Of a DNA stretch of 64,000 bases, positions 12,453 to 57,285 are shown piece by piece. Within the stretch, counting starts at the first letter, position 1; every line of letters starts with the position of its first letter. This DNA comes from Naegleria gruberi (Eukaryota), in the NCBI GenBank assembly GCA_000004985.1, contig GG738910.1; one strand, given 5' to 3'. The notes below the pieces were generated by a model. It had not been told where the DNA came from. It was given only the letters and a program-made list of their open reading frames with translations, and searched no databases. The translations under genes and the position numbers were made by a program.

Positions 12453-12539
12453 AATATTTAATTAAAATTTTCCTTTAGTGTGTTTGTCTAATTGTTTTTT
12501 GAATTCAATGTGGGCAAAAACTTCATAAAAAAATATTCA

Positions 12540-12975
12540 ACATTCTGCTACTAAAGTAGGACATGATGATTTTCGGAGTGGTTTTGCATCATGAAAGCAC
12601 CAAACTTTCACATCATCATCTCAACATGATCTATATAGTAGTAATAATAGTAATTTTTATTGGTGGATTATCATCATGAAATTGGAATTTATTTTTCATC
12701 ATGGAAAATCACAAGTTGGTACATCATCATCGGATCACTCACCAACCATCATCAATGTTATTTGCCATCAATATAATAATAGTATTTGTGGAATTTAATT
12801 TTTAGTAATATAATTTTGGTGAAATGTCAAAATTTTCACTAAATTCATCATCACTGCTGGATCTACTGAACAAGTTGGAAAACTGTCAATGTAGTATTGT
12901 TCGGAATGATCAATAGTAGGTAAGAGAATTTGGGCAAGTTATGATAGGGATAGGTACATGTGAATTTTGAAAAAA
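12540..12975 (+). repeat. Dispersed repeat family R, short (B-type) sub-family; truncated copy about 90 bp downstream of the stop of the 9634..12452 gene
   Basis: About 97% identical to the reverse complement of 37611..38183 and 45932..46507 over about 430 bp, and diverges after 12975. Confidence 0.7.
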
Positions 12976-14149
12976 GAGCAACAAATATTCTAACTGTTAA
13001 CTAACATAATCACCTTAGCCAGTTCATCAACATTACATTCACTGCATCCACTCAACTTTGCATCTAGCATTAGTCATTTTACAAGTATTAAACAGGCCTC
13101 TCAAACTCAGCAACATTCCACTAGTCAATTTAAACAATTATATGAAACAAATCCTGTCTTGAATGATTCTAATCTACAACTAGAAGAATCAACAACTCTA
13201 ACCAATCCTCCTTCATTCTCTCTGCCTCCAAAGATTAGTAAGAATTCGTTTTCGAGAAAAACAATTTCAACTTCATAATTGAGTCTGGATTCTCTTGGTC
13301 CAGAAAAAAGAAAGAGGAAGAAGAGAAGCAATTTAATGTGGAAGTGGAATAACTCTGTGATTTTTCAACAGAGTGGAACATTAAAGGAAGGTCTGTGATT
13401 TTTCAACAGAGAGGTTTCTTTTTGGAAATACATTGAGCATTCCTTTAAGTGTCAGTTTTCAAGGGAAAAGGAGAACTTGTCCAGTAGATCCAGAATTTAT
13501 TACTAATGACTTGTTGGTTGGCCCTGTATTTTAGTCAATTAAGAACCCAAGGCAACCATTGAAAATTGATATTTAGTATTGATTGTATGGATGGTTTGAT
13601 GATTTGTTTGGATATGATTTCCTTAACTGTAAGAATGTTCAATTCCACATCCGTCCGCAGTGCTAGCAACATTGCTTTGGTTGTATAAAACGACCCTTCT
13701 GGAATATTATTAAGGTTGCAATTATTAATATACTAAGGTGGGGTATTGTTAATCCTAGTTGAACCGTTGATGATTGTTTTGGAAGTCAGGTTATCAAACC
13801 AAATGACACTCTATTTAAGACATGATCGTTGAGCTTCAAGTTTGTGTTTTGGCCTTTGCTAATATTAATAACACTTATTGAAACATGTTGTGGACGCTGT
13901 TTGTTGCGTGGTTTTGACTATTAAAAAAGATCTAAAACAATACAAAAACAGCTTTTCCTTTTTTAAGTATTTTACTGTGGAGAAGCCATCACCAACAATA
14001 CTGGTGGTGGTGGTGCACCACCTGCATTGTTTGTGGCATCTTGCTTGTAATATAGTGTTGGACAACTGTCCGCTATTCATCTCAACAGTGCCTTAAATCA
14101 CACACTTAATACTTGGTACCAATAATTTCAAACAATAAAAATTCTTCGT

Positions 14150-17100
14150 GTGATGATGACGGTGACGGTACTGAGAGGAGTTAAGGGTGCAATCAATACT
14201 AACAGCGCAATATGGCACCACCCATGGAAATATTTAAAAATCATATTGCTTTGTATTTATTGGGTAGTAATTTTAAATAGTAATCATCATGTACAATGTA
14301 CAGCAACATACAAATCGAAGGTAATTGTGGGAATGACATCATTGAGTCCTTTGAACAATGTGTCAATCTCAAGTAATTATGTGATTCCCGGAAATATTTA
14401 TTTAGATAGTACTGCTGGAGTAATGTACACGACCGAAGATGCAAAAATTAGAAAGATTACTCTTTCATCGGGTATTATTTCAACACTTGTAGGTTTTCTA
14501 GAAGTTTTTAATGGTTGTTAATTTATGTGTAAAAAACAAAAGGTTGGAAGTGGTAGATTTGGAACAACATATACAACTGATCCTACGACGACTCAAATGC
14601 ATATGCCAAAAAGCTTAACACTATGGAAAACACACTTAATTTGGATTGATGGATATGTGAGAATTAGAAAATTGGATTCATCCACTAATCAAGTTTCGGT
14701 AATTTTTGGTGCAGGAAATGGAAACTCTGACAATACTGTTACAAATCCTCTCTTGGTTCGATGTGGTTCTTCTTTGTCAATAACTGTAGATCCTTCAGAT
14801 AATATTTATTTTGCAGATTTTGGTAAGTATTAATTCTTTGAAGTTACTTGACATTGGAAAAGATAATGTGATGGTAAGAAAAATTGACGGGACTACCAAT
14901 GTAGCTAGTGTTTACAATTATTACCCTAGTGGTTTATTGGGTTATCCAGTTCAAATCAAATATTGTAATGGAGGCCTTTATGTATATGTAAATGATAACG
15001 TTAATTTCTATATTCAAAAATTGACGGAAAGTGATGGAACTGTTTATGCAAGCGTAGAGGTTGGAGGTGGTTCATCAAAAAGTACAGGTATTTCTGGAAC
15101 TTCCTATCAAATGGATGCCACTAACTATGTTACCAAGATGGACTGTTACAATAATGAGCTTTATTGGAATGCGTACGATTATAGCATTAGAAAACTAACA
15201 ACTGGTGGAATTGTGGAACAGGTTTTGGGAAATGGATATAGAGGTGAGTCAGAAGATGGAACCATTACATCATCTTCAATAATTGGTTACATTGAATACT
15301 TAACTATTGATCAGGCGAATGGTGATCTTTACTTTGCTGAAAATAATTACAACATTAGAAAACTTGTTGGAACTACTTTGTCTTCATTTTTGCATTATAG
15401 AAATGTATTGAATGAAGGAAATCCAAAAACTCTTCCATTAGTTACAAAGGCAATTGCTTTATACAGTGATGGAATTTATTTGGCTGAACCAAACAGTATT
15501 AAGTTTTACAATTTAACAAGTTCAACAATTAAGCATTTTGCGGGATATTTTTATCTTCCATATAACAACAAAGCCCCAATAGGATCTTTAAATATTGGAG
15601 GTTCTTATGTGACTGCTAGATATTCTAGCATTCTATCTATGACATGCACTCCAACAGGAGATATCTATTTGAGTGAGTATTATATGAATTTTCATTCAAA
15701 ATTGATTTAATAGTTGATAATCATTATCCTGGATTTTTTATCAAATTACTGTCAAAGAGCACGGGTTTAGTTACAATAGTAGCTGGCACAGCTTCTGCAT
15801 TAGAGTGTGTTAATGGAAATACTCCAACTGCTTGTGCTATTACTGTAAGTATTTTTCTCTCATTTATTGTTTCCAATTTTATTCTAGAATGCCAAAAATA
15901 TACAATATTACAATGGTGAGGTCTATTTTGCAACAGATATCTACATTTACAAAATCAGCTCATCAACTGGAAAGATTGAGATTGTTTTAGGAGGCGGTAC
16001 TTTCACTTCTGATGGTGCATCTTCATCAGCAAATATTGCAACGCTTGGTACGTTAATTGTCATTCTCTTTCATTTAATTCTTTTATAGGTGCTTTTACGA
16101 TACGACCATCAGATGGAAAGATATATTACTTTCAACAAATCGGTTTTACGTTTTATCTCAAAGTTTTCTCTACTTCAACAGTTACAACACTTTTTACTGT
16201 AAGTGTTGATTGAACTATTTAATCTAACTTAATTAAGACCTCTTCTGTTCCTCTTGTCCCATTCAGTCTTTATGTAAACGACAACGGTTATGTGTACTAC
16301 ACTGATAGTATGACTAATACTGTTAAACTTTTCACACCTACAACAGCTAATGCTAACACTGGTACACTTACGTCATATGCTGGTAATAGTTTTGGAACAT
16401 ATAATGATGGAGAAACTCTGGCTAATACCAAGTTCACTACACTTGTAGGTTTGACTTTTTCCAACGATAACAACTTGATGTTTGTTGCAGACGATAAACT
16501 CAGAATAATTTACAAGGAGTGTGATGCAAATTATGGTGGAGATTATTGTAATCTACCCTATTGTTACTCGATTAGATCTGATGACTCCACTGTTTGTAAT
16601 TCTAATGGAAATTGTACAGATGTTAACAATTGTTTGTGTTCAAATGGTTTCTCAGGTGCTAATTGTTCTTCTTGGACTTGTAATGGATATTCAAATTCTC
16701 TTACAACTGGCTGTTCTTATCATGGTACTTGTACATCATATAACACTTGTAATTGCTCATCTAATTATTATGGATCTAATTGCTCAATTACAACATGTAA
16801 TGATATTTATTCTAATTCAAGTGAAGTTTGTTTAGGAAGAGGTATATGTGCTCAAGTAGACGATTGCCATTGTGAATTTGGTTTTACAGGCAATAATTGC
16901 CAAAATTACAACTGCTCTGGAATTGCTTTTGACAATTCCAGTGTCTGCTCTTCCAGAGGATTGTGTTTATCTCCAAATAATTGTTCTTGTCAAAGTGGGT
17001 TTTTTGGAAATGAGTGTCAACACTATAATTGTTATGGAATTCTCGCTAATTCGTCTCAAGTTTGTTCCTCAAGTGGTGTATGTTCATCTCCAAATAATTG

Positions 17101-22405: not shown

Positions 22406-22664
22406 ATTATTCCAATCATCAAGATGTATGTAACATTGCAAATTAATAAAAACAAAATTGAGAACAAGTAATTATACTAATGGATACTAAAGCTCAGGGA
22501 CTGTTTCACCTTTAAGGTGATTCAGTCTTGAGACCTGCATTAATGGATATAAATCTTTATTAGCAGGTCCCGAGAATAATAAATATGGCTCTTATAAAAA
22601 AACTTATGTTGTGTCTATTAATAATTATCGCACGATGAGCTGTGCCAATTTTATTCCTTTCCAT

Positions 22665-23400
22665 TAATAGGATATTTCTCAAGATTTCAAAATCTCGAAT
22701 ACACCATAAAACAGCAAACAATGAATAGAGTACCGACTATGTATTGCTTACATCCTACCTATATACTTTTCATCATAGGAGACAATGTAGGTGATGTGAA
22801 ATTTAATTAAAATCAGAAATATCAAAATCTTCATGATTTCAACGAAACACGACGAAATAATTGGCACGGTACATCTACAATAGTACTAATAAAAGTTTAT
22901 TAATGTTTCAAGATGATTGACTGTGTACTTTTGGCATGAATCATGATTGGTGACCATGAATAACCCGAAGTTGACAAAAACACAAAATGATGAAAATTGA
23001 AAGTTTTCCAAATTATCATGTGAATCTGGCAGTGATGATGATTTTAGTGAAAATATTGAATTTCACTAAAATATTACTATTATCAGATTTATTTCCACAA
23101 ATATTACTATTATAATGATGATAAATAACAATGATGATGGTTGGTAGTTGTTCCGATGATCATGTACCAACTTGGATTTTTCCAAATAATAAAATTATGA
23201 AGGAAAAATAAAATTATTTCCAAATCATGATGAAAGATTAAATTCCAAAAATTACTATTAATACTATTATTTAAATCATGATGAGATGATGTGGTGAAAT
23301 TCTTGGAGTTAATAGATGTGAAACTACTCCAAAAATCAATAGAGTTGTGATGTACCTGATCAACATATTTTTAAAAAAAATAGAGACAGTTGACAAAACA
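22665..23400 (-). repeat. Dispersed repeat family R, long (A-type) sub-family; inverted copy between the 14150..22405 and 23745..37050 genes
   Basis: Reverse complement of the 53690..54580-type sequence. For example, 22665-22700 is the reverse complement of gctgttttatggtgtattcgagattttgaaatcttgagaaatatcc, and 23050-23330 is the reverse complement of the ttggagtgatttcacatctattaactccaagaatttcaccacatcatctcatcatgattt segment. Confidence 0.7.
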
Positions 23401-37050: not shown

Positions 37051-37610
37051 TAAATATTACTGTATTCTCAAACATTCGAAATGTTCAAAAATAAGGGGTG
37101 TATTCCAACAGTGTGACGTAGTGGATTTCCAGACCTCTTTTTCAGGGTAGTTCAACTCCAGCTATTTTGATATGAGCTGATGAAATACCTTCTATCTCAA
37201 TTAATTTGTCAGATATTGAAGTAATAAATTGTACAGAGAGAGAATATATCACTGGGAATCTATCTTCTTCTAATGAATGTTTCTCATCCCTTATTCGTTG
37301 AATATAATAGTAAAGTATCACAAATATTAAAGAACAATAGTGAAAATTACAGGAAAAGATAATTATCTGGTGGATGAATGACATGCTATTCGTGATGTTT
37401 CAGTGAGAAGACAATATCCACATCATGAGAAAAACAATAAAAACATGAAAATATCAGATATCCATGAATTTCACAAACTATGCTATAAGACTCGAAATTA
37501 TACATTTAATAACATAATAAACATTATGAATTGTTGTTTTATTGTTGTTTGATTTGTAATTGGGCTATGAAACTCTGGTAACATCAAATATCAGAACTTG
37601 GTAAATTGAC

Positions 37611-38183
37611 AACATGAAAATCTGATAATAAATATGATGTTTATTATCTATTTAAATAGTAGTACTAAAAGACATGATTCAAGTTGGTGAAGTACATGCT
37701 GAGTTATGGTCCATGTACTTTTTCAAAATTCACATGTACCTATCCCTATCATAAATTGCCCAAAATTGATAAGAGAAAGTTCTCCTACCTACTATTGACC
37801 ATTCCGAACAATACTATATTGACAGTTTTCCAACTTGTTCAGTAGATCCATCAGTGATGATGAATTTAGTGAAAATTTTGACATTTCACCAAAATTATAT
37901 TACTAAAAATTAATTTCCACAAATACTATTATTATATTGATGGCAAATAACATTGATGATGATTGGTGAATGATCCGATGATGATGTACCAACTTGTGAT
38001 TTTCCATGATGAAAAATAAATTCCAATTTCATGATGATAATCCACCAATAAAAATTACTATTATTACTACTATATAGATCATGTTGAGATGATGATGTGA
38101 AAGTTTGGTTGTTTCATGATGTAAAACCACTCCGAAAATCATCAATGTTAAATATTTTTTAAACTTGGTTTTTGAGTAGAATG
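37611..38183 (-). repeat. Dispersed repeat family R, B-type; about 70 bp downstream of the 3' end of the minus-strand 38254..43920 gene
   Basis: Near-identical to 45932..46507, and the reverse complement of 12540..12975. Confidence 0.75.
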
Positions 38184-38253
38184 TTGAATATTTTTTTATG
38201 AAGTTTGTTGTGAGCGAGGTATGTTGTAGATTGCTGAAAAGAACAAGAGCCAT

Positions 38254-44394: not shown

Positions 44395-45890
44395 CTGTGC
44401 AAATAACTTAGAAAAATATTTCAAAAATATTGGATCAACATCAGCTGTTGATTCTTGGAGTGATTTCACATCTATTAACTCCAAGAATTTCACCACATCA
44501 TCTCATCATGATTTAAATAATAGTATTAATAGTAATTTTTGGAATTTAATTCTTCATCATGATTTGGAAATAATTTTATTATTTGGATAAATTCAAGTTG
44601 GTACATGATCATCGGAACAACTACCAACCATCATCATTGTTATTTATCATCATTATAATAGTAATGTTTGTGGAAATAAATCTGATAATAGTAATATTTT
44701 AGTGAAATTTAATATGTTCACTAAAATCAGCATCACTGCCAGATTCACATGATAATTTGGAAAACTTTTAATCTAGTATTGTTCAGAATGGTCAATTTCA
44801 TCAGGTAAAATCACTTCCGAACATTTTCCTATTGGTTATTATGATGTCAAAATGTAAATGGACTATATCTCAACATGTACTTCACCAACTTGGAAAATGT
44901 CTTTTAGTACTACTATTTAAATACATAATAAACAATATATTTATTATCAGTTTTTCATCATTTTTTGTTTTTGTCAACTTCGGAATATCTGTGGAAATGT
45001 TTTTCCCGTATTTTTGCAATGCTCCTTACAAAAAAGGAAATATTAAATTTAATACTTAGTGAAATAAAAATATTATTTATTATTCTTGTTCTAATTGATG
45101 TTTTCTACAATATTCTGTTTTATTGAATATCAGTTATTTGTATTAACCAAGAAAACATGCTCGTCTTACTACCACATATGAAAATTTTGAAATCACTTTT
45201 CTCGATAAGTAAAGAGCCAAATCCGTAACAAACTTGATATTATGATTGTTAACATAATTAATAATGACCATACGGTATGTTTCTCTAACATCCAGTGTTG
45301 TTATTGAGATATGCTTTGTTGAAGTTGAGTGAATTTGCTTAAGTAAATTACTTGGCGCATCCAATTACCCCTACAGGTAAATCAGCTTTGGGAGCATTCC
45401 ATGTTTTTTGGGAGCATCACAAAAATGCGCCACAGATATTCATGATAACAAATCATGATTCATGCCAAAAGTACAAAGTCAATCATCTTGAAACATTAAT
45501 AAACTTTTATTAGTACTATTGTAGATGTACCGTGCCAATTATTTCGTCTTGTTTCGTTGAAATCATGAAGATTTTGATATTTCTGCTTTTAATTAAATTT
45601 CACATCACCTACACCATATTTGATGATGTAAACTAGTCTAGTTGCATCTAAATAATCCATTGTTGCTTCTCTAATCATGCTTTATTGTTATTCAGTGTAT
45701 TCAGGATTTAGAAATCTTGCGAATTATCCTGAGGTTATTCTTCATATAAATATGATTCCTCATATCATGATATGAGGAGGTATTGATATCATGATTGTTT
45801 GGAAGTGTTGTACAAATTTTGGACATTTTCTGAATCGAAATCAGGTAGAAAGAGTCAAATCTTTAACACCATATAAAATATAACTGTTTT
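44395..45890 (+). repeat. Dispersed repeat family R, A-type; copy interrupted by a nested insertion (44989..45435). It lies about 470 bp upstream of the 5' end of the minus-strand 38254..43920 gene
   Basis: Collinear with 53690..54745 and 56213..57285 except for the 447-bp insertion. It contains a perfect 20-bp palindrome cctcatatcatgatatgagg at 45758..45777. Confidence 0.75.
44989..45435. mobile_element. MITE-like non-autonomous insertion nested in repeat copy R (A-type), with imperfect terminal inverted repeats and a 4-bp ATAT target-site duplication
   Basis: The uninterrupted copies read ggaatattcatgataac. Here the sequence reads ggaATAT[ctgtggaaatgtttttcccgtatttttgcaatgctcc ... gggagcatcacaaaaatgcgccacag]ATATtcatgataac. 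The termini CTGTGG...CCACAG are inverted, with an internal matching atttttgYRatgctcc. There is no coding capacity, and the element is about 447 bp. Confidence 0.45.
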
Positions 45891-45931
45891 TAATTGAAGT
45901 AAGCTAAATGATAGAGATTGTTGCCCGACAA

Positions 45932-46507
45932 CATGATGAAAATCTGATAATAAATATGATGTTTATTATCTATTTAAATAGTAGTACTAAAAGACATGAT
46001 TCAAGTTGGTGAAGTACATGTTGAGTTATGGTCCATGTACTTTTTCAAAATTCACATGTACCTATCCCTATCATAACTTGACCAAAATTGATAAGAGAAA
46101 GTTCTCCTACCTACTATTGACCATTCCGAACAATACTATATTGACAGTTTTCCAACTTGTTCAGTAGATCCAGCAGTGATGATGAATTTAGTGAAAATTT
46201 TGACATTTCACCAAAATTTAGTACTAACAATTAACTAAAAATTAATTTCCACAAATACTATTATTATATTGATGGCAAATAACATTGATGATGATTGGTG
46301 AATGATCCGATGATGATGTACCAACTTGTGATTTTCCATCATGAAAAATAAATTCCAATTTCATGATGATAATCCACCAATAAAAATTACTATTATTACT
46401 ACTATATAGATCATGTTGAGATGATGATGTGAAAGTTTGGTTGTTTCATGATGTAAAACCACTCCGAAAATCATCAATGTTAAATATTTTTTAAACTTGG
46501 TTTTTGT
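45932..46507 (-). repeat. Dispersed repeat family R, B-type; inverted relative to the adjacent A-type copy at 44395..45890, and about 450 bp upstream of the 46962 gene
   Basis: Near-identical to 37611..38183. Confidence 0.75.
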
Positions 46508-46961
46508 TGGGACCCACTTTTAGAGCTGAGAGAACTCTTTTGAGGCTTGGAGTAACACTGCAGAGATACGACCTGAATTACACACAAATCAAACAGAACT
46601 TTATCACTATTAAAATAACACCATTCTTTTGAAGTTGATTATAAACAAATAAATCTACAATACTCAATTAGTCATCCTATTTTCTTTTTAAAAATACGGA
46701 CAGTGCAAATTGAGGTTTTTTTAGGACCGTAGTATCATATTACAAATAAGCACCTTATTAATATTATGCATATGTAAGGATTTATTTTGGTTGAAGATTT
46801 AACATAACATTTCTTGAACTCTCAAAAGTGCTTTTTAGGCAAAATTAGGGGAATGTCATTGTGCGAACACATCAGAGAAGACGCACAATTAAGCAGTGCT
46901 TTAGATACAGGTAGTATACTAAAGTTATAGGTAGAAGCAAGGTATTGTTACTCACTCAAAG

Positions 46962-49900
46962 ATGAACCTTAAAAAAATGAAAACATTTCTTGTTTGCTGC
47001 TTGATTTTAATAATCATTTGCACTGTCTCATCNNNNNNNNNNNNNNNNNNNNNNNNNNNNNNNNNNNNNNNNNNNNNNNNNNNNNNNNNNNNNNNNNNNN
47101 NNNNNNNNNNNNNNNNNNNNNNNNNNNNNNNNNNNNNNNNNNNNNNNNNNNNNNNNNNNNNNNNNNNNNNNNNNNNNNNNNNNNNNNNNNNNNNNNNNNN
47201 NNNNNNNNNNNNNNNNNNNNNNNNNNNNNNNNNNNNNNNNNNNNNNNNNNNNNNNNNNNNNNNNNNNNNNNNNNNNNNNNNNNNNNNNNNNNNNNNNNNN
47301 NNNNNNNNNNNNNNNNNNNNNNNNNNNNNNNNNNNNNNNNNNNNNNNNNNNNNNNNNNNNNNNNNNNNNNNNNNNNNNNNNNNNNNNNNNNNNNNNNNNN
47401 NNNNNNNNNNNNNNNNNNNNNNNNNNNNNNNNNNNNNNNNNNNNNNNNNNNNNNNNNNNNNNNNNNNNNNNNNNNNNNNNNNNNNNNNNNNNNNNNNNNN
47501 NNNNNNNNNNNNNNNNNNNNNNNNNNNNNNNNNNNNNNNNNNNNNNNNNNNNNNNNNNNNNNNNNNNNNNNNNNNNNNNNNNNNNNNNNNNNNNNNNNNN
47601 NNNNNNNNNNNNNNNNNNNNNNNNNNNNNNNNNNNNNNNNNNNNNNNNNNNNNNNNNNNNNNNNNNNNNNNNNNNNNNNNNNNNNNNNNNNNNNNNNNNN
47701 NNNNNNNNNNNNNNNNNNNNNNNNNNNNNNNNNNNNNNNNNNNNNNNNNNNNNNNNNNNNNNNNNNNNNNNNNNNNNNNNNNNNNNNNNNNNNNNNNNNN
47801 NNNNNNNNNNNNNNNNNNNNNNNNNNNNNNNNNNNNNNNNNNNNNNNNNNNNNNNNNNNNNNNNNNNNNNNNNNNNNNNNNNNNNNNNNNNNNNNNNNNN
47901 NNNNNNNNNNNNNNNNNNNNNNNNNNNNNNNNNNNNNNNNNNNNNNNNNNNNNNNNNNNNNNNNNNNNNNNNNNNNNNNNNNNNNNNNNNNNNNNNNNNN
48001 NNNNNNNNNNNNNNNNNNNNNNNNNNNNNNNNNNNNNNNNNNNNNNNNNNNNNNNNNNNNNNNNNNNNNNNNNNNNNNNNNNNNNNNNNNNNNNNNNNNN
48101 NNNNNNNNNNNNNNNNNNNNNNNNNNNNNNNNNNNNNNNNNNNNNNNNNNNNNNNNNNNNNNNNNNNNNNNNNNNNNNNNNNNNNNNNNNNNNNNNNNNN
48201 NNNNNNNNNNNNNNNNNNNNNNNNNNNNNNNNNNNNNNNNNNNNNNNNNNNNNNNNNNNNNNNNNNNNNNNNNNNNNNNNNNNNTAACTCTAAGTACAAT
48301 GGTGATTATCAATATGCAACAAATGCCAATTTGAATTATCCATTGGGTGTTTTGATTACACCTAATGGAGAAATGATCATTTCAGAAACATACGGTAACA
48401 GGATTCGCAGAGTATTAACAAATGGAACTATCATTCCACTGGCAGGGAGTGGAAGTTCAAATGATTGTGCAGGTATTACAGCATCTAACACTCCATTGGT
48501 AAGTCCAAAAGGAACTTATTTTAGTGCGAATGGAGATATTTATGTAGCTGAAACTCAAGGTCATAGGATTAGTAGAATTTCAAAGAATGGAATGATTGAC
48601 TCTATTGCTGGTACAGGTAAATTTGGTTTTAATGGAGATAATTTATTTGCTACAGATACACAATTATCAAATCCTTTTGCAGTTGCCTTTGATCTAGAAA
48701 CCCAATTGATTGTCTCAGATTCTGGTAATCATGTCATTCGTAAAATTCTTAGAAATGGAACAATGGTCATTATTGCTGGAACTGGACAATCAGGATATAA
48801 TGGAGATGGAATTGATGCTAAGATTGCAAAATTAAATAATCCATCAGGTATTGTTGTGGATTCTAAAACTGGTGAGCTTTTTATTGCTGACACTGCTAAT
48901 AATAGAATTAGAAAGATTTTAACAAACGGTACTATAATAACTATTGCTGGAACAGGTGAAACAGGATATAATGGAGATGGAATTGATGCAACAAGCGCTC
49001 AAATAAGAGGCGTGTATGGTATTGCCCTTGATGTTAATTCTGAGCTCTACATTGCTGATGCTAATAATTATAGGATTAGAAAGATTTTATCAAATGGAAC
49101 AATTATAACTATTGCTGGAAATGGAGGCTATGGTTTCATTGATAATGTTCTTGCAACAAATGCCAAACTTGCTTTCGTTAATGGAATTGCTGTAGATACG
49201 AACGGTGAAGTTTATATTACTGAGTCTGAGAATGGATTTTCAAATCATCGAATTCGTAAAATATTGACAAATGGAACCATTATAACATTTTCAGGAACTG
49301 GTTCAAGAGGTTATTATGGTGATAATGTGGAAGCAGCTGATGCCAAATTCTATACTCCTTATTTCGTTTCTGTTCGCCAAACAACAGGTGAGGTGCTTAT
49401 TTCAGATACTGGAAATAATTTCTTGAGATTGGTTTCAACAACTCGTCTATGCAATGGAACTCTAGCAAGTGATCCTATGGTTTGTAGTGGGCACGGAATA
49501 TGTTATTTAACAGATGTTTGCACTTGTAACCCTGGCTATATTGGTTCATTATGTGATGTTGTGGCATGTAATGGTTTCAATTCGAGTGATCCTAGAGCTT
49601 GTAATGGACATGGTATTTGTGAAGGACCAAACATTTGTAATTGCACTACAGGTTATGTTGGTTCATTTTGTGATGTTTCTTTGTGTTATGGTTTCAATTC
49701 GAGTGATTCAAGAGTTTGTAATGGACATGGTATTTGTGAAGGACCAGATATTTGTAATTGCAGCACAGGTTATATTGGCCCACTATGTGATGATGTGGCA
49801 TGTGATGGTTTCAATTCAAGTGATTCAAGAGCTTGTAATGGACATGGTATCTGTGAAGGACCAAACATTTGTAATTGCAGCACAGGTTATATTGGTTCAT

Positions 49901-52900
49901 TTTGTGATGTTGTGGCATGTGATGGTTTTAAAATAAGTGATCCTAGAGCTTGTAATAGACATGGTATTTGTGAAGGCCCAAACATTTGTAATTGCACTAC
50001 AGGTTATGTTGGTTCATTTTGTGATGTTTCTTTGTGTTATGGTTTCAATTCGAGTGATCCTAGAGTTTGTAATGGACATGGTATTTGTGAAGGACCAGAT
50101 GTTTGCAATTGTACCACAGGTTATGTTGGTTCATTTTGTGATGTTGTGGCATGTGATGGTTTCAATTCAAGTGATTCAAGAGCTTGTAATAGACATGGTA
50201 TTTGTGAAGGCCCAAACATTTGTAATTGCACTACAGGTTATGTTGGTTCATTTTGTGATGTTTCTTTGTGTTATGGTTTCAATTCAAGTGATCCTAGAGT
50301 TTGTAATAGACATGGTATCTGTGAAGGCCCAAACATTTGTAATTGCACTACAGGTTATGTTGGTTCATTTTGTGATGTTTCTTTGTGTTATGGTTTCAAT
50401 TCGAGTGATCCTAGAGCTTGTAATGGACATGGTATTTGTGAAGGACCAGATGTTTGCAATTGTACCACAGGTTATGTTGGTTCATTTTGTGATGTTTCTT
50501 TGTGTAATGGTTTCAATTCGAGTGATCCTAGAGTTTGTAATGGACATGGTATCTGTGAAGGCCCAAACATTTGTAATTGCAGCACAGGTTATATTGGCCC
50601 ACTTTGTGACGNNNNNNNNNNNNNNNNNNNNNNNNNNNNNNNNNNNNNNNNNNNNNNNNNNNNNNNNNNNNNNNNNNNNNNNNNNNNNNNNNNNNNNNNN
50701 NNNNNNNNNNNNNNNNNNNNNNNNNNNNNNNNNNNNNNNNNNNNNNNNNNNNNNNNNNNNNNNNNNNNNNNNNNNNNNNNNNNNNNNNNNNNNNNNNNNN
50801 NNNNNNNNNNNNNNNNNNNNNNNNNNNNNNNNNNNNNNNNNNNNNNNNNNNNNNNNNNNNNNNNNNNNNNNNNNNNNNNNNNNNNNNNNNNNNNNNNNNN
50901 NNNNNNNNNNNNNNNNNNNNNNNNNNNNNNNNNNNNNNNNNNNNNNNNNNNNNNNNNNNNNNNNNNNNNNNNNNNNNNNNNNNNNNNNNNNNNNNNNNNN
51001 NNNNNNNNNNNNNNNNNNNNNNNNNNNNNNNNNNNNNNNNNNNNNNNNNNNNNNNNNNNNNNNNNNNNNNNNNNNNNNNNNNNNNNNNNNNNNNNNNNNN
51101 NNNNNNNNNNNNNNNNNNNNNNNNNNNNNNNNNNNNNNNNNNNNNNNNNNNNNNNNNACCAAAATTCAAATGTTTCGACTCTAGTTACCATTCAAACAAG
51201 CTCTGAACAATTATATGCAAACCTTTTTATTGATACTATTTCCAGTAAGAAGGTAACACTTGTGGTTGCAAATCAAGATTTAGAACAAAGTAATGAAGCG
51301 GAAACTTGGAGTTACGTTTGTCAAGATGAAAATTTTACTAATTGTGGTCAGACAATTGCCAATATTCTCTCGAATTATGCTTCTATCAAATCTAAAACTT
51401 TGGAATTATCAGCAGATAATTTCCCATCCATTGATTCCACATATTCAATTACTTTAAACATTGTAAAGGGAGTAAGAAGTTTTTCATCTTTAATTTCCTT
51501 GAAATTTCCAAAAGAAAACCAAAAACTTCCTCCAATAGTTAACTTATTGAATGTTATTCCAAATAGAAACAGATTAAGCAAATCTGAATTTTTGAATTTA
51601 CAAATTTCTGTCACTAACAGTGATGGATTGGATGTCAAAAATTTAAAAAGAGAATGGAAATTGAATGGACAATCAATTGATGATAACTATTTAACCAAGA
51701 TGAGTACAGCATTATCAGATTCTAACAATATCGTTTTAAGTATCACCTATTTAGATGAAGGTTCATCTAACGTATTGACATGTCAAGTCACAGATTTGGA
51801 TAGTCAATTGTCAAGCACTTTTAGTTACTCATTTTCAATTATTACATCACCTAAACCATGTCCATGTTCAGTTTCACCATCTACAGGATATGCGTTAGAA
51901 ACAGAATTTACCTTCTCATGCACAAACTGCCAAAATAAGGACAATACTCTAGCATTTAGTCTATCATTTGTAGATGATAAATCTGGAGCTCTTATTCCAC
52001 TTGTAATTGAAGGTGGAAACACATTTACCACAAAGCTTCCATATCCAATTTCCAATCCATTAATGTTTGACATTACAATTGTTGACATAGAGACACTTGC
52101 ATCAGTTCAAAACTATCAAAACATTCAGATGATTTTACCAAAAGCAAGTTCTGTTCGTGAAGTCAAAACAAAAGTTGCCAAGTGGAATACTTTCCAAACT
52201 TCACTTCAACAAAATGATTTGAGAAGAATGATTTTCTCATCTGCAATTATTTCTAGAACCTCTGAGGCAATGATTTCAGCAATCAGTGGAAGAAGATCTA
52301 TTTGTTTGAACGGCGGAGTTTATAATTCTCAATTAAGAAAATGTATTTGTGTGAATGGATACAAAAAGAAAGATTGCAGCCTTAATGAAGAAGATTTCAC
52401 ATTGTTAACTGAATTTAAAGGTGAATTATTTAATAACTTTTTATTTGCATTCAAAAACAGACAAGAACAAATGTCTGAAATGTATATCATCTATCAATTA
52501 TATGGCTTGGATTCACTTTTATCAAATTATGATGAATTGAATGCTGAGATGTTTGCAAATGGAGTCCAATTCTTCAAGGATTTAATATCTTCCGCTGTTA
52601 GTGTTTCTAATTTACATCTAAGACCTGGAATTGACAAATTAACTCAAAATATTATCAACTCACTTTACAGATATTTGATTTATAATGGATGTATTGAAAA
52701 GGAATGTTTGAGAGATCATGTTATTGAAATGATAAGCATGTTGAAAGAAATTTCACAACTATTACTCAGATCCAAACTTGTAGGAGAAAGTGATCTGAAA
52801 TTAGACACTGATTTTATGGTGTTATTGACAAATAAGAACTATAGATACCATTTCAATAGTTTGAAAGTTCAAAATTTAACTTTACCTACCAATGATGAAG

Positions 52901-53529
52901 GAATTTCTTCAATTAATAACAGAATGCTATTGTCTTTCATTTCAACTAGTTCACATAATTTGGCCAACAAAATTGAGTCAACAATTGAAGTTTATGAGAA
53001 GGTAGAAAATAATAGAAAAGAGACTCAAACAATCACCAAGGATTATTCTATTACTTCAAATGTTATAAGTTTTTCCTTTTTAAGAGACCTCCAAATGAAT
53101 CAATCCATTTCCTTCTCCTTCCCTAGAAATGATCAATTTTCCGCAAGAAGCGAGCAATCATTCGAATATTCATGTATTGTAATTTGGAATATCACTCAAG
53201 TTAGACCAGAAAATGAAAATAATAATTGTAAAATAGTTGTCAACCAAGAAACAATTATTTGTCAATGTCCATATCAAAACCAAACTCAAGTAGGTGTTTT
53301 GAGAACAGCCATTTCGAGACGTGTTTCAGTTGAACAAGTAGCTCAACCTTCAGATTCAAGTAATTTACTCTATCTATTATTTTTACTCTTTTTAGTATTG
53401 TTTATTATTTTAATTGTAATAATAATTGGAATTGTTATTGTATGTCTGGTTAAAAGAAGGAGAAATGGTGGTAGTAAAAAGTCAGCAGCACATGTTGAAA
53501 TGGAGACTGTTAAAACTTCGACAGTTTAG
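46962..53529 (+). CDS. Large secreted type I membrane protein interrupted by two assembly gaps. Domain order: signal peptide, [gap], about 8 NHL repeats, at least 9 near-identical 40-aa EGF repeats, [gap], PKD/REJ-like region, CxC-ISP module, GPS-like motif, TM, tail ending in STV
   Basis: ATG at 46962 (or 46977) opens MNLKKMKTFLVCCLILIIICTVS, which then runs into the N-gap. The frame reopens at 48285 (...NGDYQYATNANLNYPLGVLITPNGEMIISETYGNRIRRV...) and is continuous, through the second gap as X, to TAG at 53527-53529. Landmarks are the PCPCSVSPSTGYALETEFTFSCTNCQN motif, IICQCPYQNQTQVGVL juxtamembrane, and TM LLYLLFLLFLVLFIILIVIIIGIVIVCLV. Exon structure inside the gaps is unknown. Confidence 0.68.
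47033..48284. other. Assembly gap (1,252 N) inside the 46962..53529 gene
   Basis: Run of N. Confidence 1.
49555..50611 (+). repeat. Coding tandem repeat, period 120 bp (40 aa: CDV(V/S)(A/L)C(D/Y/N)GFNSSD(S/P)R(A/V)CN(G/R)HGICEGP(N/D)(I/V)CNC(T/S)TGY(V/I)G(S/P)(F/L)). There are about 9 near-identical copies, running into the gap at 50612
   Basis: Successive 120-nt units differ at only a few positions. The array is truncated by the N-gap, so the copy number is unknown. Confidence 0.8.
50612..51157. other. Assembly gap (546 N) at the end of the 120-bp EGF tandem array
   Basis: Run of N immediately after repeat unit 9. Confidence 1.
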
Positions 53530-53689
53530 CCTGAATCACTAACCCATATCAAATGGGACCGGTCCGGATTCTTGGATTTTTTCAAGAATGCGTTCAAACA
53601 CGCTTCAATAAACTTTTTTTTATTAAAGATTCTTGGCGTGAAACCTAGTTCGAAATAAACCCATTTTAAAAATTATTCAATATTTTGTG

Positions 53690-54745
53690 AAGAACTTGGA
53701 AAAATATTTCAAAAATATTGGATCAACATCAGCCGTTGATTCTTGGAGTGATTTCACATCTATTAACTCCAAGAATTTCACCACATCATCTCATCATGAT
53801 TTAAATAATAGTATTAATAGTAATTTTTGGAATTTAATCTTTCATCATGATTTGGAAATAATTTTATTATTTGGAAAAATTCAAGTTGGTACATGATCAT
53901 CGGAACAACTACCAACCATCATCATTGTTATTTATCATCATTATAATAGTAATATTTGTGGAAATAAATCTGATAATAGTAATATTTTAGCGAAATTCAA
54001 TATTTTCACTAAAATCATCATCACTGCCAGATTCACATGATAATTTGGAAAACTTTCAATCTAGTATTGTTCAGAATGGTCAATTTCATCAGGTAAAATC
54101 ACTTCCGAACATTTTCCTATTGGTTATTATGATGTTAGGTATGTGTATATTTTCAAAATGTAAATGGACTATATCTCAACATGTACTTCATCAACTTGGA
54201 AAATGTCTTTCATCACTACTATTCAAATACATAATAAACAATATATTTATTATCAGCTTTTCATCATTTTGTGTTTTTGTCAGCTTCGGAATATTCATGA
54301 TAACAAATCATGATTCATGCCAAAAGTACACAGCCAATCATCTTGAAACATTAATAAACTTTTATTAGTACTATTGTCGATGTACCGTGCCAATTATTTC
54401 GTCGTGCTTCGTTGAAATCATGAAGATTTTGATATTTCTGTTTTAATTAAATTTCACATCACCTACATTGTCTCCTATGATGAAATGTATATAGGGAGGA
54501 TGTAAGCAATACATAGTCGGTACTCTATTCATTGTTTGCTGTTTTATGGTGTATTCGAGATTTTGAAATCTTGAGAAATATCCAGAGGTCATTCACCAAA
54601 TAATTATAATTTCTCTATAAATGAAATGAGGAGGGATTCATGCTATGATTATTTAGAAGAGCCACATAGAGTTTGGATACTATCTGAACTGAAATGAGGT
54701 AGAAAGAGTACAATCTTCAAATGTATTATAATATGTCCTCTCAAT
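53690..54745 (+). repeat. Dispersed repeat family R, A-type, about 1.05 kb; about 160 bp downstream of the stop of the 46962..53529 gene
   Basis: Collinear with 56213..57285 and with 44395..45890 minus the insertion. Its first about 575 bp are homologous (about 75%) to the B-type copies. Confidence 0.75.
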
Positions 54746-55299
54746 ATTGGATTTCGAAAATGGTAAGGCAATCCTAAAGTCATCTTTCAAACACAATACA
54801 GTAGCACATGATAATATTTCTACTTTGTTTATTGGTACAAATTGGAATGACTTTTATTGCCGCTTGTTTTTTGGTTTGCTTACCTTGAGAAGCCACCATG
54901 AAGAGAGTTCTCCCTTTGCTTCCTTCCACTACATCATCTAGATAAGTACCTGATACATTAAAGTGAAGTTAATGTACAAGAACTAAGAAGTACTTCAATC
55001 TATGATTGTTATCAAAATCCTAACTATTCGGTGAGAGATAAAACCTAATTAATAGCGATGCAATAGACAACCGGTTAAAGATGAATCTCTTTCCCATTAA
55101 ATCAATGATTCATAAATAAGGGACTTGTGATTGCTGTATACTATGCATCTTCCTGATAATGTAATTGACCTCGTTTAGTGTAATTCACTGAGATATTCTA
55201 AAAAAGGTGGAGATAATTATTATTTCCTCAAGCACTCCTTGTTCCTTTGCTCTTCAAATACTAGTTAATTAGTGTTGTAGATTAAACAGCTCAAAAAGA

Positions 55300-55833
55300 A
55301 TGCTTCCAAACAATTTAACCAACCAGCAGACACTATTATTCTTGTTGCATCTGATGCTACAGAACTCTAATAATGAAGTGAATCATGATGATTCGTTCCT
55401 TCCGGGCTGGGAAAAAGATGATAATAATTGTTGTCCAGTGAATCAATCAGCACTATCCAATGATAATACTTACACTAATAATACAAATAATATTGTGTTT
55501 GGGAAGGAAGAACCCAAATTACAACCATCCAAGATAATTAAGAGGAATAATAACTCCAATATTACTAATAACAAGCAGCATTCAATGAGAACGCGCCCTA
55601 AGGTTATCAACCCCTCTACTGTAAATACTTCTCCGAGCATTAGCAATAATACTACATTCTTCATCATATCGACCATTGAATCTATTAAGGAAGAAGAAGA
55701 ATTGAAGAAAACTCTTCCTAAACGACCAAGAGGAAGACCTCGTAAGAATAGTTTCGAATCAATGTCCAATTCTTCTTCTTCATCTTCAAATTGTTGCTCT
55801 TCTTCCAGCAGTAAACGAATCAAAAGGGAGTAA
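55300..55833 (+). CDS. Hypothetical small Asn/Ser-rich protein with an AT-hook-like motif (KRPRGRPRKN); it possibly continues into the 55836..56087 ORF
   Basis: 177-aa ORF. Its PRGRPRK core is typical of AT-hook DNA-binding motifs, and the remainder is low-complexity. The adjacent ORF in another frame could be a second exon, but no convincing splice pair was found. Confidence 0.4.
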   Translation: MLPNNLTNQQTLLFLLHLMLQNSNNEVNHDDSFLPGWEKDDNNCCPVNQSALSNDNTYTNNTNNIVFGKEEPKLQPSKIIKRNNNSNITNNKQHSMRTRPKVINPSTVNTSPSISNNTTFFIISTIESIKEEEELKKTLPKRPRGRPRKNSFESMSNSSSSSSNCCSSSSSKRIKRE

Positions 55834-56212
55834 CAATGAAGAATTATCATTCATTTACAAGCTGTTGTGAATACTACAGTACTGAGAATGAAGATAGAAA
55901 TCTTGATCCAAACATTCATCAACATCAACAAAATCATCATCAAGCATTTCATCCTCATGACCTTGGATGGATCAACAATACTGAATTTTTGATTTGTCTC
56001 ATGGTTATAGATGGGAAAATGTCAAAGTTTCCTTCATCAATTATTGGCTTAATTTCTCAAATTAAATCAACCAATTATTTACTATAGTATTAACAATAAC
56101 TATTGTTATATACGAAATAAACCCGTATAAATTATTCAGTAATATTCGGTCGCATCATTCTCCATGCAAAAAATATCTTTGGACACACCGATTCTTGTTT
56201 GTGGAAGAAATC

Positions 56213-57285
56213 AAATAACTTAGAAAAATATTTCAAAAATATTGGAACAACATCAGGTACATCACGACTCTGTTGATTCTTGGAGTGATTTCACATCTAT
56301 TAGCTCCAAGAATTTCACCACATCATCTCATCATGATTTAAATAATAGTATTAATAGTAATTTTTGGAATTTAATCCTTCATCATGATTTGGAAATAATT
56401 TTATTATTTGGAAAAATTCAAGTTGGTACATGATCATCGGAACAACTACCAACCATCATCATTGTTATTTATCATCATTATAATAGTAATATTTGTGGAA
56501 ATAAATCCGATAATAGTAATATTTTAGTGAAATTTAATATGTTCACTAAAATCATCATCACTGCCAGATTCACATGATAATTTGGAAAACTTTCAATCTA
56601 GTATTGTTCAGCATGGTCGATTCCATCAGGTAAAATAACTTCCGAGCATTTCCCTATGGAAATCATGATGATAGATTCATGTATATTTTCAACATGTACA
56701 TGGACTATATCTCAACATGTACTTCACCAACTTGGAAAATGTCTTTCATCACTACTATTCAAATACATAATAAACAATATATTTATTATCAGTTTTTCAT
56801 CATTTTGTGTTTTTGTCAACTTCGGGTTATTCATGGTCACCAATCATGATTCATGCCAAAAGTACACAGCCAATCATCTTGAAACATTAATAAACTTTTA
56901 TTAGTACTATTGTAGATGTACCATATCAATTATTTCGTCTTTTTTCGTTGAAATCATGAAGATTTTGATTTTTCTGTTTAATTAAATTTCACATCACCTA
57001 CACCATATTTTGTTGATGTAAACTAGACTAATTACATGTAAATAATCCATTGTTGATTCTCTAATCATGTTTTATTGTGTTTTTTTTTGTGTATTTAGGA
57101 TTTTGAAATCTTGCACAGTATTCTGCGGTTATTCTTCATATAAATATGATTCCTCACTTCATGATATGAGGAGGGATAGATAGCATGATTGTTTGGAAGT
57201 GTTGTACAAATTTTGGACACTCCCTGAATTGAAATCAGGAAGAAAGAGTCAAATCTTTAACACCATATACAATATGACTTTTGAC
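56213..57285 (+). repeat. Dispersed repeat family R, A-type; the most telomere-proximal copy
   Basis: Collinear with 53690..54745 and 44395..45890. It contains an imperfect version of the 20-bp palindrome (cctcacttcatgatatgagg). Confidence 0.75.

What the first reader, a model, noticed from the sequence alone, without database searches (positions are those of the whole stretch)
12540..57285. One dispersed repeat family (two sub-types) occupies nearly every intergenic space between the receptor genes
Seven copies lie at 12540..12975(+), 22665..23400(-), 37611..38183(-), 44395..45890(+), 45932..46507(-), 53690..54745(+) and 56213..57285(+). The B-type (about 575 bp) corresponds to the first half of the A-type (about 1.05 kb), at about 75% identity between types and over 90% within types. 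Copies start 70-470 bp from gene ends, in both orientations. Two copies (44395 and 45932) form an inverted pair upstream of divergently transcribed genes. The repeats have no convincing coding capacity. They contain short iterated motifs (catcatga, aataatagtaat) and a perfect 20-bp palindrome (45758..45777). They could be non-autonomous elements that target this gene family, shared regulatory or terminator modules co-duplicated with the genes, or substrates for ectopic recombination that shuffles family members.
Basis: seen in the sequence. Interest (0 to 1): 0.6.

Follow-up and report, generated by a model that had tools for sequence, protein, structure and literature searches.

The report
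Non-coding subtelomeric repeat family in Naegleria
Seven copies of a non-coding repeat of 0.5-1.1 kb really do sit between giant surface-receptor genes at a chromosome end of the amoeba Naegleria gruberi, but they look like an ordinary unclassified dispersed repeat whose copies have exchanged sequence, not a new kind of system.

Summary
The window is the telomeric end of a Naegleria gruberi scaffold. It carries seven copies of one non-coding repeat family: four A-type (about 1.05 kb) and three B-type (about 0.6 kb). They occupy six of the seven spacers in an array of NHL/EGF/REJ receptor-like genes.

- **Younger than the genes.** Copies are 87-100% identical within a type, while the flanking genes are 25-28% identical in protein or not alignable, and the flanks outside the copies are unique. 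The copies therefore spread, or were homogenised, long after the genes duplicated. This rules out simple co-duplication.
- **Decaying like neutral DNA.** Individual copies are truncated, internally deleted, or interrupted by a nested MITE.
- **Mosaic.** The A copies show conflicting groupings along their length, which indicates gene conversion between copies.
- **No class-defining features.** I found no terminal inverted repeats, target-site duplications, Helitron or LTR termini, tRNA-derived head, coding signal, Rfam match or conserved RNA fold.

Best reading: a lineage-specific, unclassified interspersed or subtelomeric repeat. It is probably a non-autonomous mobile element, it recombines ectopically, and it has no demonstrated function.

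The key test, genome-wide distribution, could not be run with these tools. Interest is modest.

The parts
12518..12974 (+). B-type copy 'B12'. It is truncated at its 3' end, lacking the last ~110 nt of B. Its head lies 66 bp after the stop codon of the NHL gene ending at 12452.
   Evidence: 12518-12974 aligns to 38206-37719 at 90% identity. The 26-mer hits at 12712.
22669..23376 (-). A-type copy 'A22'. It has an internal ~200-nt deletion, a 3' truncation of ~137 nt, a 19-nt insertion and a rearranged head. It lies between the stop codon of gene 2 (22405) and the start of gene 3 (ORF start 23445; likely signal-peptide start ~23745).
37608..38206 (-). B-type copy 'B37', the longest B copy. Its head lies 48 bp after the stop codon (38254) of the minus-strand receptor gene. 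It sits between convergent genes.
   Evidence: It is 96% identical to B45, with 273 nt at 100% (D12).
37442..37555 (+). Degenerate inverted fragment (~66% identity) of the repeat's middle module, 53 bp from the tail of B37. It is probably the remnant of an older copy.
   Evidence: 37442-37555 aligns to 44849-44971, and inversely to 37609-37698., I1/I5.
44400..45888 (+). A-type copy 'A44'. It is full length but interrupted by a nested insertion. Its head lies ~480-520 bp upstream of the start of the minus-strand receptor gene (43920/43878), in divergent orientation.
44988..45436 (+). Nested MITE-like DNA transposon inside A44. Its termini are TCTGTGG...CCACAGA, with an inner inverted match. The target duplication is TA (or ATAT). 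The empty site GGAATATTCATG is preserved in A53; A56 and A22 read GGGTTATTCATG there.
   Evidence: TIR test z = 7.9, p < 0.002. No other copy in the window.
45927..46507 (-). B-type copy 'B45'. Its head is truncated by ~32 nt. It lies tail-to-tail with A44, 38 bp apart. Its head lies 455 bp upstream of the start codon (46962) of the next receptor gene, in divergent orientation.
   Evidence: I18.
53690..54748 (+). A-type copy 'A53', full length, tail haplotype 1. Its head lies 161 bp after the stop codon (53529) of the receptor gene.
56212..57282 (+). A-type copy 'A56', full length, tail haplotype 2. It lies 379 bp after the stop codon of a small non-family ORF (55300-55833) and is the copy nearest the telomere.
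63722..64000 (+). Context: the telomere, (TTTGGG)n, written TTGGGT by the repeat finder. It runs 46.5 units at 100% purity. All seven copies lie 6.4-51.5 kb from it.
   Evidence: TTTGGG was proposed as the N. gruberi telomere repeat in PMC3622300.

Best explanation
The seven copies are a lineage-specific, non-coding interspersed repeat family with two subfamilies, A (~1.05 kb) and B (~0.6 kb, homologous to the first half of A).

The family entered, or was copied into, the spacers of a subtelomeric array of giant receptor-like genes well after those genes had duplicated and diverged. The copies are most likely non-autonomous mobile elements of a class that leaves no terminal inverted repeats and no target-site duplication. 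A close alternative is that they are subtelomeric blocks propagated by ectopic recombination.

Once in place the copies behave as neutral DNA:
- They are truncated, deleted and invaded by another transposon.
- They exchange segments with one another by gene conversion, which keeps the 5' ~800 nt nearly identical and produces mosaics.

Their main consequence is passive. They supply 0.5-1 kb homology tracts in both orientations around the receptor genes.

**Shown here:**
- The copies are real and non-coding.
- They are younger than the gene duplications.
- They are discrete units in unrelated flanks.
- They are mosaic.
- They lack the hallmarks of the TE classes tested here and of structured RNA.

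**Inferred:** mobility itself, the mechanism of spread, and restriction to subtelomeres or to this gene family.
For: **Identity of the region.** The window is N. gruberi, with exact matches to XP_002670972 and XP_002670940. It ends in the (TTTGGG)n telomere.

**The copies.**
- Seven copies are found by BLASTN, nhmmer and the 26-mer. There are none in the first 12.5 kb, which holds only one NHL-family gene (6253-8367).
- The repeats cover 5.5 kb of the 64-kb window. A preprint gives 0.28% classified TE content genome-wide. This density therefore cannot be typical of the genome; that step is my inference.

**Age relative to the genes.**
- The flanking genes carry NHL, teneurin-EGF, REJ and PKD domains.
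- Their C-terminal 450 aa are 25-28% identical or give no hit.
- No coding DNA next to a copy aligns to coding DNA next to another copy, whereas the copies themselves are 87-100% identical.

**Discrete units in unrelated flanks.**
- Sequences outside the copies are unique.
- Five copies from both subfamilies begin at the same CAAA(T)AACTT position, and the three full-length A copies end at the same ...AATATRWCY position.
- B37 and B45 share both ends.

**Decay.** A22 has an internal deletion and a truncation. B12 and B45 are truncated. A44 carries a nested MITE with a clean empty site in its sister copies.

**Mosaicism.**
- Of 37 informative sites among the four A copies, 32 group {A53, A22} against {A56, A44}. 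Of these, 27 lie in the last 250 nt, where the two haplotypes are 72% identical.
- Four sites within a 15-nt stretch, plus a 14-19-nt indel, group {A53, A44} against {A56, A22}.
- By my count, the chance that the four conflicting sites are adjacent in the site order is about 5e-4.

**Non-coding.**
- The longest ORF is 107 aa and is not conserved between copies.
- Concatenated ORF translations found no protein homologue.
- Substitutions show no three-base periodicity.

**Not a structured RNA.** There are no Rfam hits, no tRNA, and alignment-fold z-scores mostly within +/-1.
Against: - No insertion signature was found. There is no TSD (all p > 0.1) and no TIR (z <= 1.3). Helitron, LTR and poly(A) termini are absent on reading the ends.
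- Weak homology may continue 15-110 nt beyond the head in some A copies (A53 against A56 flanks z = 3.7). The 5' boundary of the A type is therefore not perfectly sharp, which fits duplication or conversion as well as transposition.
- No copy outside this one array could be examined. No copy was found in JGI metagenomes or IMG/VR.
- No autonomous partner or TE protein domain is present in the window.
- Three features leave room for a cis-acting function: the ~18-fold TCATGA enrichment; the conservation of blocks between A and B; and the recurring geometry, with heads 48-161 bp after three family stop codons and 370-520 bp upstream of three family start codons.
Confidence: 0.6

Rival explanations
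1. The repeat is a family-specific cis-regulatory or UTR module, comparable to the conserved 'ups' flanks of Plasmodium var genes. Selection or conversion keeps it similar because it controls the receptor genes. The iterated TCATGA-type motifs would be transcription-factor sites, and the head would face the gene.
For: - TCATGA occurs 5-7 times per A copy against 0.28 per kb in the background. Some sites are shared at homologous positions by A and B.
- The heads lie 48, 66 and 161 bp after the stop codons of three family genes, and 370-520 bp upstream of three family start codons in divergent orientation.
- Genes 4 and 5 have homologous C-terminal tails, each followed head-first by a copy (B37 and A53). 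That arrangement could be ancestral.
- A and B keep conserved blocks despite 25% divergence.
Against: - The same orientation of the unit is found both downstream of stop codons and upstream of start codons.
- One copy follows a non-family ORF. The two NHL genes at 6.2-12.4 kb have no copy between them.
- Copies are truncated at different points, internally deleted (A22 lacks 200 nt) or split by a MITE. That is unexpected for a constrained module.
- The 370-520 bp directly upstream of each start codon is unique.
- Gene-1 orthologues in two related Naegleria-like contigs have no detectable copy within 0.4-1 kb downstream.
Confidence: 0.15
2. The copies are recombination cassettes. They would be maintained because they promote gene conversion, inversion or duplication that diversifies or switches the receptor genes, as the 70-bp repeats do for trypanosome VSG genes.
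For: - The location is subtelomeric, 6-51 kb from the telomere.
- Copies flank most family genes in direct and inverted pairs.
- The copies themselves show conversion tracts and mosaicism.
- B37 and B45, which are 96-100% identical and in direct orientation, bracket gene 4 plus A44.
- The only inverted gene of the array, gene 4, is bracketed by inverted copies.
- A 99%-identical environmental strain may carry a 13.4-kb structural difference in this array.
Against: - No gene-level exchange is visible. The coding regions next to the copies are unrelated at DNA level.
- The possible strain deletion has breakpoints at 12470 and 25826, outside the repeats. It rests on only 47 bp of one metagenomic contig.
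- Recombination among dispersed repeats is an expected by-product and needs no selected function.
Confidence: 0.1
3. The copies are passive leftovers of the tandem segmental duplications that built the gene array. On this view the intergenic DNA was copied together with the genes.
For: - The copies lie only in the array's spacers.
- The A/B divergence of ~75% could date from an old duplication.
- Genes 4 and 5 share a homologous 3' coding tail followed by a copy in the same orientation.
Against: - Neutral spacers cannot stay 87-100% identical while the adjoining coding sequence has diverged to 25-28% protein identity or beyond alignment.
- The flanks on both sides of each copy are unique.
- Orientation and position relative to the genes differ between copies.
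Confidence: 0.05
4. The copies are genes for a structured non-coding RNA or a small peptide.
For: Sequence blocks are conserved between A and B. Short ORFs of 35-107 aa are present.
Against: - No Rfam family matches and there is no tRNA-like head.
- Consensus folding energies are near zero, with z-scores mostly within +/-1. The best are -2 to -3 among 26 windows.
- The ORFs are not conserved between copies.
- There are no protein homologues and no codon periodicity.
Confidence: 0.03

Closest known systems
Unclassified interspersed repeats ('Unknown' RepeatModeler families) of Naegleria gruberi
   Same: Non-coding, multi-copy, 0.5-1 kb, lacking recognisable TE hallmarks. A published methylome study states that only a small fraction of N. 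gruberi repeats can be classified as known TEs, and that repeats are the main sites of 5mC and heterochromatin (PMC12344493).
   Different: Whether this particular family is in those libraries, or among the 447 hypermethylated regions, could not be checked.
Subtelomeric patchwork repeats associated with contingency gene families (yeast X/Y' elements; conserved ups flanks of Plasmodium var genes; trypanosome VSG 70-bp repeats). This comparison rests on my own knowledge.
   Same: The repeats lie in the last ~50 kb before the telomere and are interleaved with a large, fast-diverging surface-protein gene family. The non-coding blocks are far more similar than the genes they flank, and there is evidence of gene conversion between blocks.
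   Different: Position and orientation relative to the genes are not fixed. Sharing between chromosome ends is untested. No evidence exists of switching, silencing or gene-level conversion. The host is a free-living amoeboflagellate with no known antigenic variation.
Non-autonomous DNA transposons (MITEs) and Helitron-derived non-autonomous elements
   Same: Short, non-coding, in both orientations, gene-proximal in a compact genome, with subfamily and modular structure and iterated subterminal-type short motifs.
   Different: There are no TIRs and no TSDs, which a genuine MITE nested inside copy A44 does show. There is no 5'-TC/CTRR-3' terminus. The only palindrome lies 111 nt from the end and is not conserved between copies.

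Membership tests
TIR DNA transposon / MITE | Terminal inverted repeats | tested here: not met
   Local alignment of the first 80 nt against the reverse complement of the last 80 nt gives z <= 1.3 for A56, A44, A53, B37 and B45. The positive control, the nested insert, gives z = 7.9.
TIR DNA transposon / MITE | Target-site duplication abutting both ends | tested here: not met
   The best exact matches between 40-nt flanks are 3-7 nt, do not abut the ends, and have p = 0.1-1.0 against shuffles.
TIR DNA transposon / MITE | Short, non-coding, multi-copy | tested here: met
Helitron (non-autonomous) | 5'-TC and CTRR-3' termini, insertion between A and T, and a conserved hairpin 10-20 nt from the 3' end | tested here: not met
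   The ends read CAAATAACTT... and ...AATATRACTKTT. The flanking bases differ between copies. The 20-bp palindrome lies 111 nt from the end and is perfect only in A44.
Solo LTR | TG...CA termini and a 4-6-bp TSD | tested here: not met
   The termini are as above and there is no TSD.
SINE / 5'-truncated non-LTR retrotransposon | A tRNA-, 7SL- or 5S-derived head, or a shared 3' end with a poly(A) or simple-repeat tail and TSDs | tested here: not met
   There are no tRNA genes and no Rfam hits. Read in reverse orientation, the copies do share one end and vary at the other. That shared end has no A-rich or simple-repeat tail, and no TSD.
Subtelomeric repeat block | Location in the subtelomere | tested here: met
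   All copies lie 6.4-51.5 kb from the (TTTGGG)n at the end of the window.
Subtelomeric repeat block | Shared between several chromosome ends and rare in chromosome cores | not testable with these tools
   The N. gruberi genome is not indexed. Pattern scans of metagenomes and IMG/VR were empty.
Subtelomeric repeat block | Sequence exchange (gene conversion) between copies | tested here: met
   Informative sites give incompatible partitions in clustered tracts, and there is a 72% versus 92-100% identity contrast along the element.
Segmental duplication remnant | Flanking sequence paralogous at comparable divergence | tested here: not met
   The flanks are unique. The neighbouring proteins are 25-28% identical or give no hit.
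Structured non-coding RNA gene | A conserved secondary structure or a match to a known family | tested here: not met

The most novel reading that the evidence does not exclude
The A/B repeats could be functional flanking cassettes of a contingency-type receptor gene family in a free-living amoeboflagellate. On this reading they would be conserved non-coding modules at chromosome ends that drive outward or antisense transcription. Alternatively, or in addition, they would provide the homology for gene conversion or inversion that switches or diversifies giant NHL-EGF-REJ surface receptors. That would be analogous to var ups elements or VSG 70-bp repeats, but outside parasitism.
Probability: 0.06. 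Interest if true: 0.75.

Novelty: new member of a known kind. Interest (0 to 1): 0.3.

Why it matters
If the family proves to be confined to subtelomeres or to this receptor family, it would mark Naegleria chromosome ends as recombination-prone compartments carrying fast-evolving surface receptors. That organisation is known mainly from parasites and yeasts. The family would also give a sequence handle for finding all such ends in fragmented assemblies.

If it is simply one of many unclassified repeats, its value is practical:
- It should be added to the repeat library.
- It explains part of the unusually long spacers in this array.
- It warns that assemblies and gene models here (gaps, possible strain-specific deletion) need long-read confirmation.

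Tried and rejected
**Reaching other N. gruberi DNA**
- Exact-protein look-ups failed for two annotated N. gruberi proteins of the window (P0001 = XP_002670972, P0004 = XP_002670940) and one unannotated ORF. The NCBI assembly is not indexed.
- Two conserved repeat patterns gave no hits in JGI metagenome contigs, and one gave none in IMG/VR.
- A protein search with concatenated repeat ORFs, meant to catch copies called as genes in any assembly, gave no hits.
- A concatenated search with gene-end peptides, meant to pull allelic contigs, was swamped by low-complexity words and returned one self hit.
- A search with the gene-1 protein gave one near-identical environmental contig that stops before the repeat, plus two contigs from other Naegleria-like species without the repeat.

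**Classifications rejected**
- Structured RNA: Rfam, ARAGORN and alifold z-scores were all negative.
- Coding: ORFs, homology and codon periodicity were all negative.
- TE class: TIR, TSD, Helitron, LTR and poly(A) signatures were all negative.

**Ideas dropped**
- B37 extending into a diverged A-like second half, as nhmmer and a permissive BLAST suggested. The extra similarity is an inverted degenerate fragment, not a collinear extension.
- 'The head always faces the nearest gene end' as a statistical claim. It depends on which start codon is assumed for gene 3.
- A RIP-like or methylation-driven mutation bias. The transition/transversion ratio is about 1 or lower.
- A foldback-element reading of the A44/B45 inverted pair. 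The arms are only ~75% identical, and there is no TSD.

Full report
**Where the window comes from.** Two ORFs of the window are exact matches to Naegleria gruberi predicted proteins XP_002670972 and XP_002670940, on a 243,952-bp scaffold. The window ends in 46.5 perfect units of TTGGGT, which is the same repeat as TTTGGG. TTTGGG was proposed as the N. gruberi telomere repeat by Fulneckova et al. 2013 (PMC3622300). The window is therefore the last 64 kb of a chromosome arm. It has three assembly gaps: 47033-48284, 50612-51157 and 63034-63083.

**Layout of the window.**
- The first ~6 kb hold ordinary genes, including a GT61 glycosyltransferase and a zinc-finger protein.
- From 6.2 to 53.5 kb lies an array of very large single-pass receptor-like genes built from NHL repeats, teneurin-type EGF repeats, REJ and PKD domains. 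One ORF is 4,078 aa.
- A small non-family ORF follows at 55300-55833.
- The remainder, up to the telomere, is non-coding subtelomeric DNA that includes a ~2.3-kb unit in two tandem copies.

- B12: 12518-12974 (+)
- A22: 22669-23376 (-)
- B37: 37608-38206 (-)
- A44: 44400-45888 (+)
- B45: 45927-46507 (-)
- A53: 53690-54748 (+)
- A56: 56212-57282 (+)

B aligns to the first ~585 nt of A at 74-78% identity. The B copies are 90-96% identical to each other, with 273 nt at 100% between B37 and B45. The A copies are 87-94% identical overall. Six of the seven spacers of the array contain a copy, and the repeats make up roughly a quarter to two thirds of each of those spacers. The first 12.5 kb contain none.

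The inverted pair, the palindrome at 45758-45777 and the iterated motifs are all present. TCATGA occurs about 5 per kb in A copies against 0.28 per kb elsewhere. The palindrome is perfect only in A44.

- A44 is 1.5 kb long because a 447-449-bp element is inserted in it (44988-45436). The insert has termini TCTGTGG...CCACAGA, a significant inner inverted repeat (z = 7.9) and a TA (or ATAT) duplication. The uninterrupted site GGAATATTCATG is preserved in A53, and A56 and A22 read GGGTTATTCATG there. This is a textbook nested MITE. It also serves as an internal positive control for what a DNA-transposon insertion looks like in this genome.
- The A copies are mosaics. Their first ~800 alignment columns are 92-100% identical in all pairs. 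The last ~250 nt occur as two haplotypes only ~72% identical: {A53, A22} against {A56, A44}.
- A block of four informative sites within 15 nt, and a 14-19-nt indel near the head, instead group {A53, A44} against {A56, A22}. By my count, the chance that the four conflicting sites are adjacent among 37 ordered informative sites is about 5e-4. Copies have therefore exchanged segments.

**The copies are younger than the genes.** The coding DNA next to the copies does not align between genes. The C-terminal 450 residues of the neighbouring genes are 25-28% identical or give no BLASTP hit. The spacer DNA outside each copy is unique, even with a permissive search. The only flank similarity is the homologous C-terminal coding tail of genes 4 and 5. 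Neutral spacers cannot remain 87-100% identical while adjoining coding sequence has diverged that far. The copies must therefore have arrived or been homogenised recently, independently of the gene duplications. This excludes simple co-duplication for the within-type copies.

**The copies are discrete units that decay.**
- Five copies from both subfamilies begin at the same CAAA(T)AACTT position.
- The three full-length A copies end at the same ...AATATRWCY position, despite belonging to different tail haplotypes.
- B37 and B45 share both ends.
- Individual copies are damaged in different ways. A22 lacks ~200 internal nt (between short TTTCA direct repeats) and ~137 nt at its 3' end. B12 lacks its last ~110 nt, B45 lacks ~32 nt at its head, and A44 carries the MITE.
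- A degenerate inverted fragment of the middle module lies beside B37, at 37442-37555.

This pattern is that of neutrally decaying dispersed repeats rather than of a constrained functional module.

**What the copies are not.**

*Not coding:*
- The longest ORF is 107 aa and is not conserved between copies.
- The concatenated ORF translations have no homologue among 5.8 billion proteins.
- Substitutions between A and B, and among A copies, show no three-base periodicity.

*Not a known or detectable structured RNA:*
- There are no Rfam hits at gathering thresholds and no tRNA-like sequence.
- Sliding-window consensus folds on both strands have energies near zero, with z-scores mostly within +/-1.

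*Not a member of any TE class tested here:*
- There are no TIRs (z <= 1.3) and no TSDs (p = 0.1-1.0).
- Helitron 5'-TC/CTRR-3' ends, LTR TG...CA ends, and A-rich or simple-repeat tails in either orientation are all absent.
- The window encodes no transposase, integrase, reverse transcriptase or Rep-helicase.

*One caveat:* weak similarity continues 15-110 nt beyond the head in some A copies (A53 against A56 flanks, z = 3.7). The A-type 5' boundary is therefore not perfectly sharp.

**What could not be done.** The decisive test is the family's genome-wide copy number and distribution. Conserved repeat patterns found nothing in JGI metagenomes or IMG/VR.

The accessible related DNA gives little:
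- An environmental contig from a strain 99% identical to the window (ENA ERZ929261) carries gene 1 but leaves the reference 18 bp after the stop codon. It then continues for 47 bp with sequence identical to 25826-25872, inside gene 3. This is either a 13.4-kb deletion variant or a chimeric contig. Its breakpoints are not in the repeats.
- Gene-1 orthologues on two contigs from other Naegleria-like organisms (69% nt identity) show no trace of the repeat in the 0.4-1 kb available downstream.

There is one indirect argument for local enrichment. The family covers 8.6% of this window, yet a preprint gives 0.28% classified TE content for N. gruberi, and a published methylome study notes that most N. 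gruberi repeats are unclassified (PMC12344493). The density seen here therefore cannot hold genome-wide. This last step is my inference.

**Interpretation.**

*Best supported (confidence ~0.6).* This is a lineage-specific, unclassified, non-coding interspersed repeat with two subfamilies. It spread into the spacers of this subtelomeric array after the genes had diverged. It is probably a non-autonomous mobile element of a class that leaves no TIR or TSD, or a block propagated by ectopic recombination. Its copies continue to exchange sequence by gene conversion while decaying. Mobility and the mode of spread are inferred, not shown.

*Functional alternatives, not excluded.*
- A family-specific regulatory module (~0.15). 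In its favour are the TCATGA motif arrays, the blocks conserved between A and B, and the recurrent spacing from stop and start codons. Against it are inconsistent placement, a copy beside a non-family gene, and the damaged copies.
- Recombination cassettes for receptor diversification (~0.1). In its favour are the subtelomeric setting, the pairs bracketing genes, and the demonstrated conversion between copies. Against it is the absence of any visible gene-level exchange.

**Comparison with known systems and verdict.** The closest known things are the unclassified repeats already reported in bulk for N. gruberi, and the subtelomeric patchwork repeats that accompany contingency gene families in yeasts and parasites. 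The family resembles the latter in location, in being far more conserved than the genes it flanks, and in recombining. It differs in having no fixed geometry relative to the genes and no evidence of a role.

I rate it a new member of a known kind, of modest interest (0.3). The most novel reading not excluded is functional flanking cassettes of a switching or diversifying receptor family in a free-living amoeba. I give that about 6% probability, and it would be of high interest if true.

Noticed in passing
window 63722-64000 (degenerate variants from ~63631): The window ends in 46.5 perfect units of TTGGGT, which is TTTGGG, G-rich strand 5'->3' toward the end. A few degenerate telomere-like units (TTAGGC/TTGGGC...) precede it. 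This matches the candidate N. gruberi telomere repeat reported in PMC3622300.
   Followed up: partly
window 58739-63390: A non-coding subtelomeric unit of ~2.3 kb occurs in two tandem copies (88-91% identical) directly inside the telomere. It has no ORF longer than 72 aa and no similarity to the A/B repeats.
   Followed up: partly
window 44988-45436: A MITE-like DNA transposon of 447-449 bp is nested in repeat copy A44. Its termini are TCTGTGG...CCACAGA, its inverted repeat is significant, and its target duplication is TA or ATAT. An intact empty site survives in the sister copies. It is single-copy in the window.
   Followed up: yes
L002 (ENA ERZ929261 contig k127_155570) 3400-3446, against window 12470 and 25826: A contig from an environmental strain 99% identical to the window joins the 3' UTR of gene 1 (18 bp after the stop codon) to the interior of gene 3, with 3 bp of microhomology. 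This is either a 13.4-kb deletion removing B12, gene 2 and A22, or an assembly chimera. Only 47 bp support it.
   Followed up: partly
window 41797-42991 (-) and 49537-50609 (+): Tandem arrays of a 117-bp unit (39 aa, one EGF-like repeat), about 9-10 units each at 77-91% identity, lie inside two different receptor genes. There is also a 351-bp (three-unit) super-period.
   Followed up: no
window 37442-37555: A degenerate (~66%) inverted fragment of the repeat's middle module sits 53 bp from the tail of B37. It suggests an older, eroded partner copy, arranged tail-to-tail like the A44/B45 pair.
   Followed up: partly
window 38254-38330 (-) and 53450-53529 (+): The receptor genes ending at 38254 and 53529 share a homologous cytoplasmic tail (...VEMKSV* and ...VEMETVKTSTV*), although the rest of their C-terminal halves are only ~25% identical. 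Each is followed head-first by a repeat copy.
   Followed up: partly
window 14150-16292: The 5' part of the receptor gene ending at 22405 is split into four ORFs in different frames: 14150-14521, 14525-14833, 14811-15710 and 16292 onward. This reflects either short introns or frameshifts in a decaying gene.
   Followed up: no
L003 (Logan SRR25266747) and L004 (ENA ERZ929261): Two further Naegleria-like organisms are present in public reads. They are 69% identical in nucleotides to gene 1 and 80% to each other. In L003 the gene-1 orthologue sits next to housekeeping genes (Myb, peptidase M24, PAP2) rather than in a receptor array. Neither contig shows the repeat.
   Followed up: partly
window 47033-48284, 50612-51157, 63034-63083: Three runs of N mark assembly gaps. 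Two lie inside the receptor gene at 46962-53529, so that gene model and the spurious all-frame 'ORFs' across the gaps are unreliable.
   Followed up: yes
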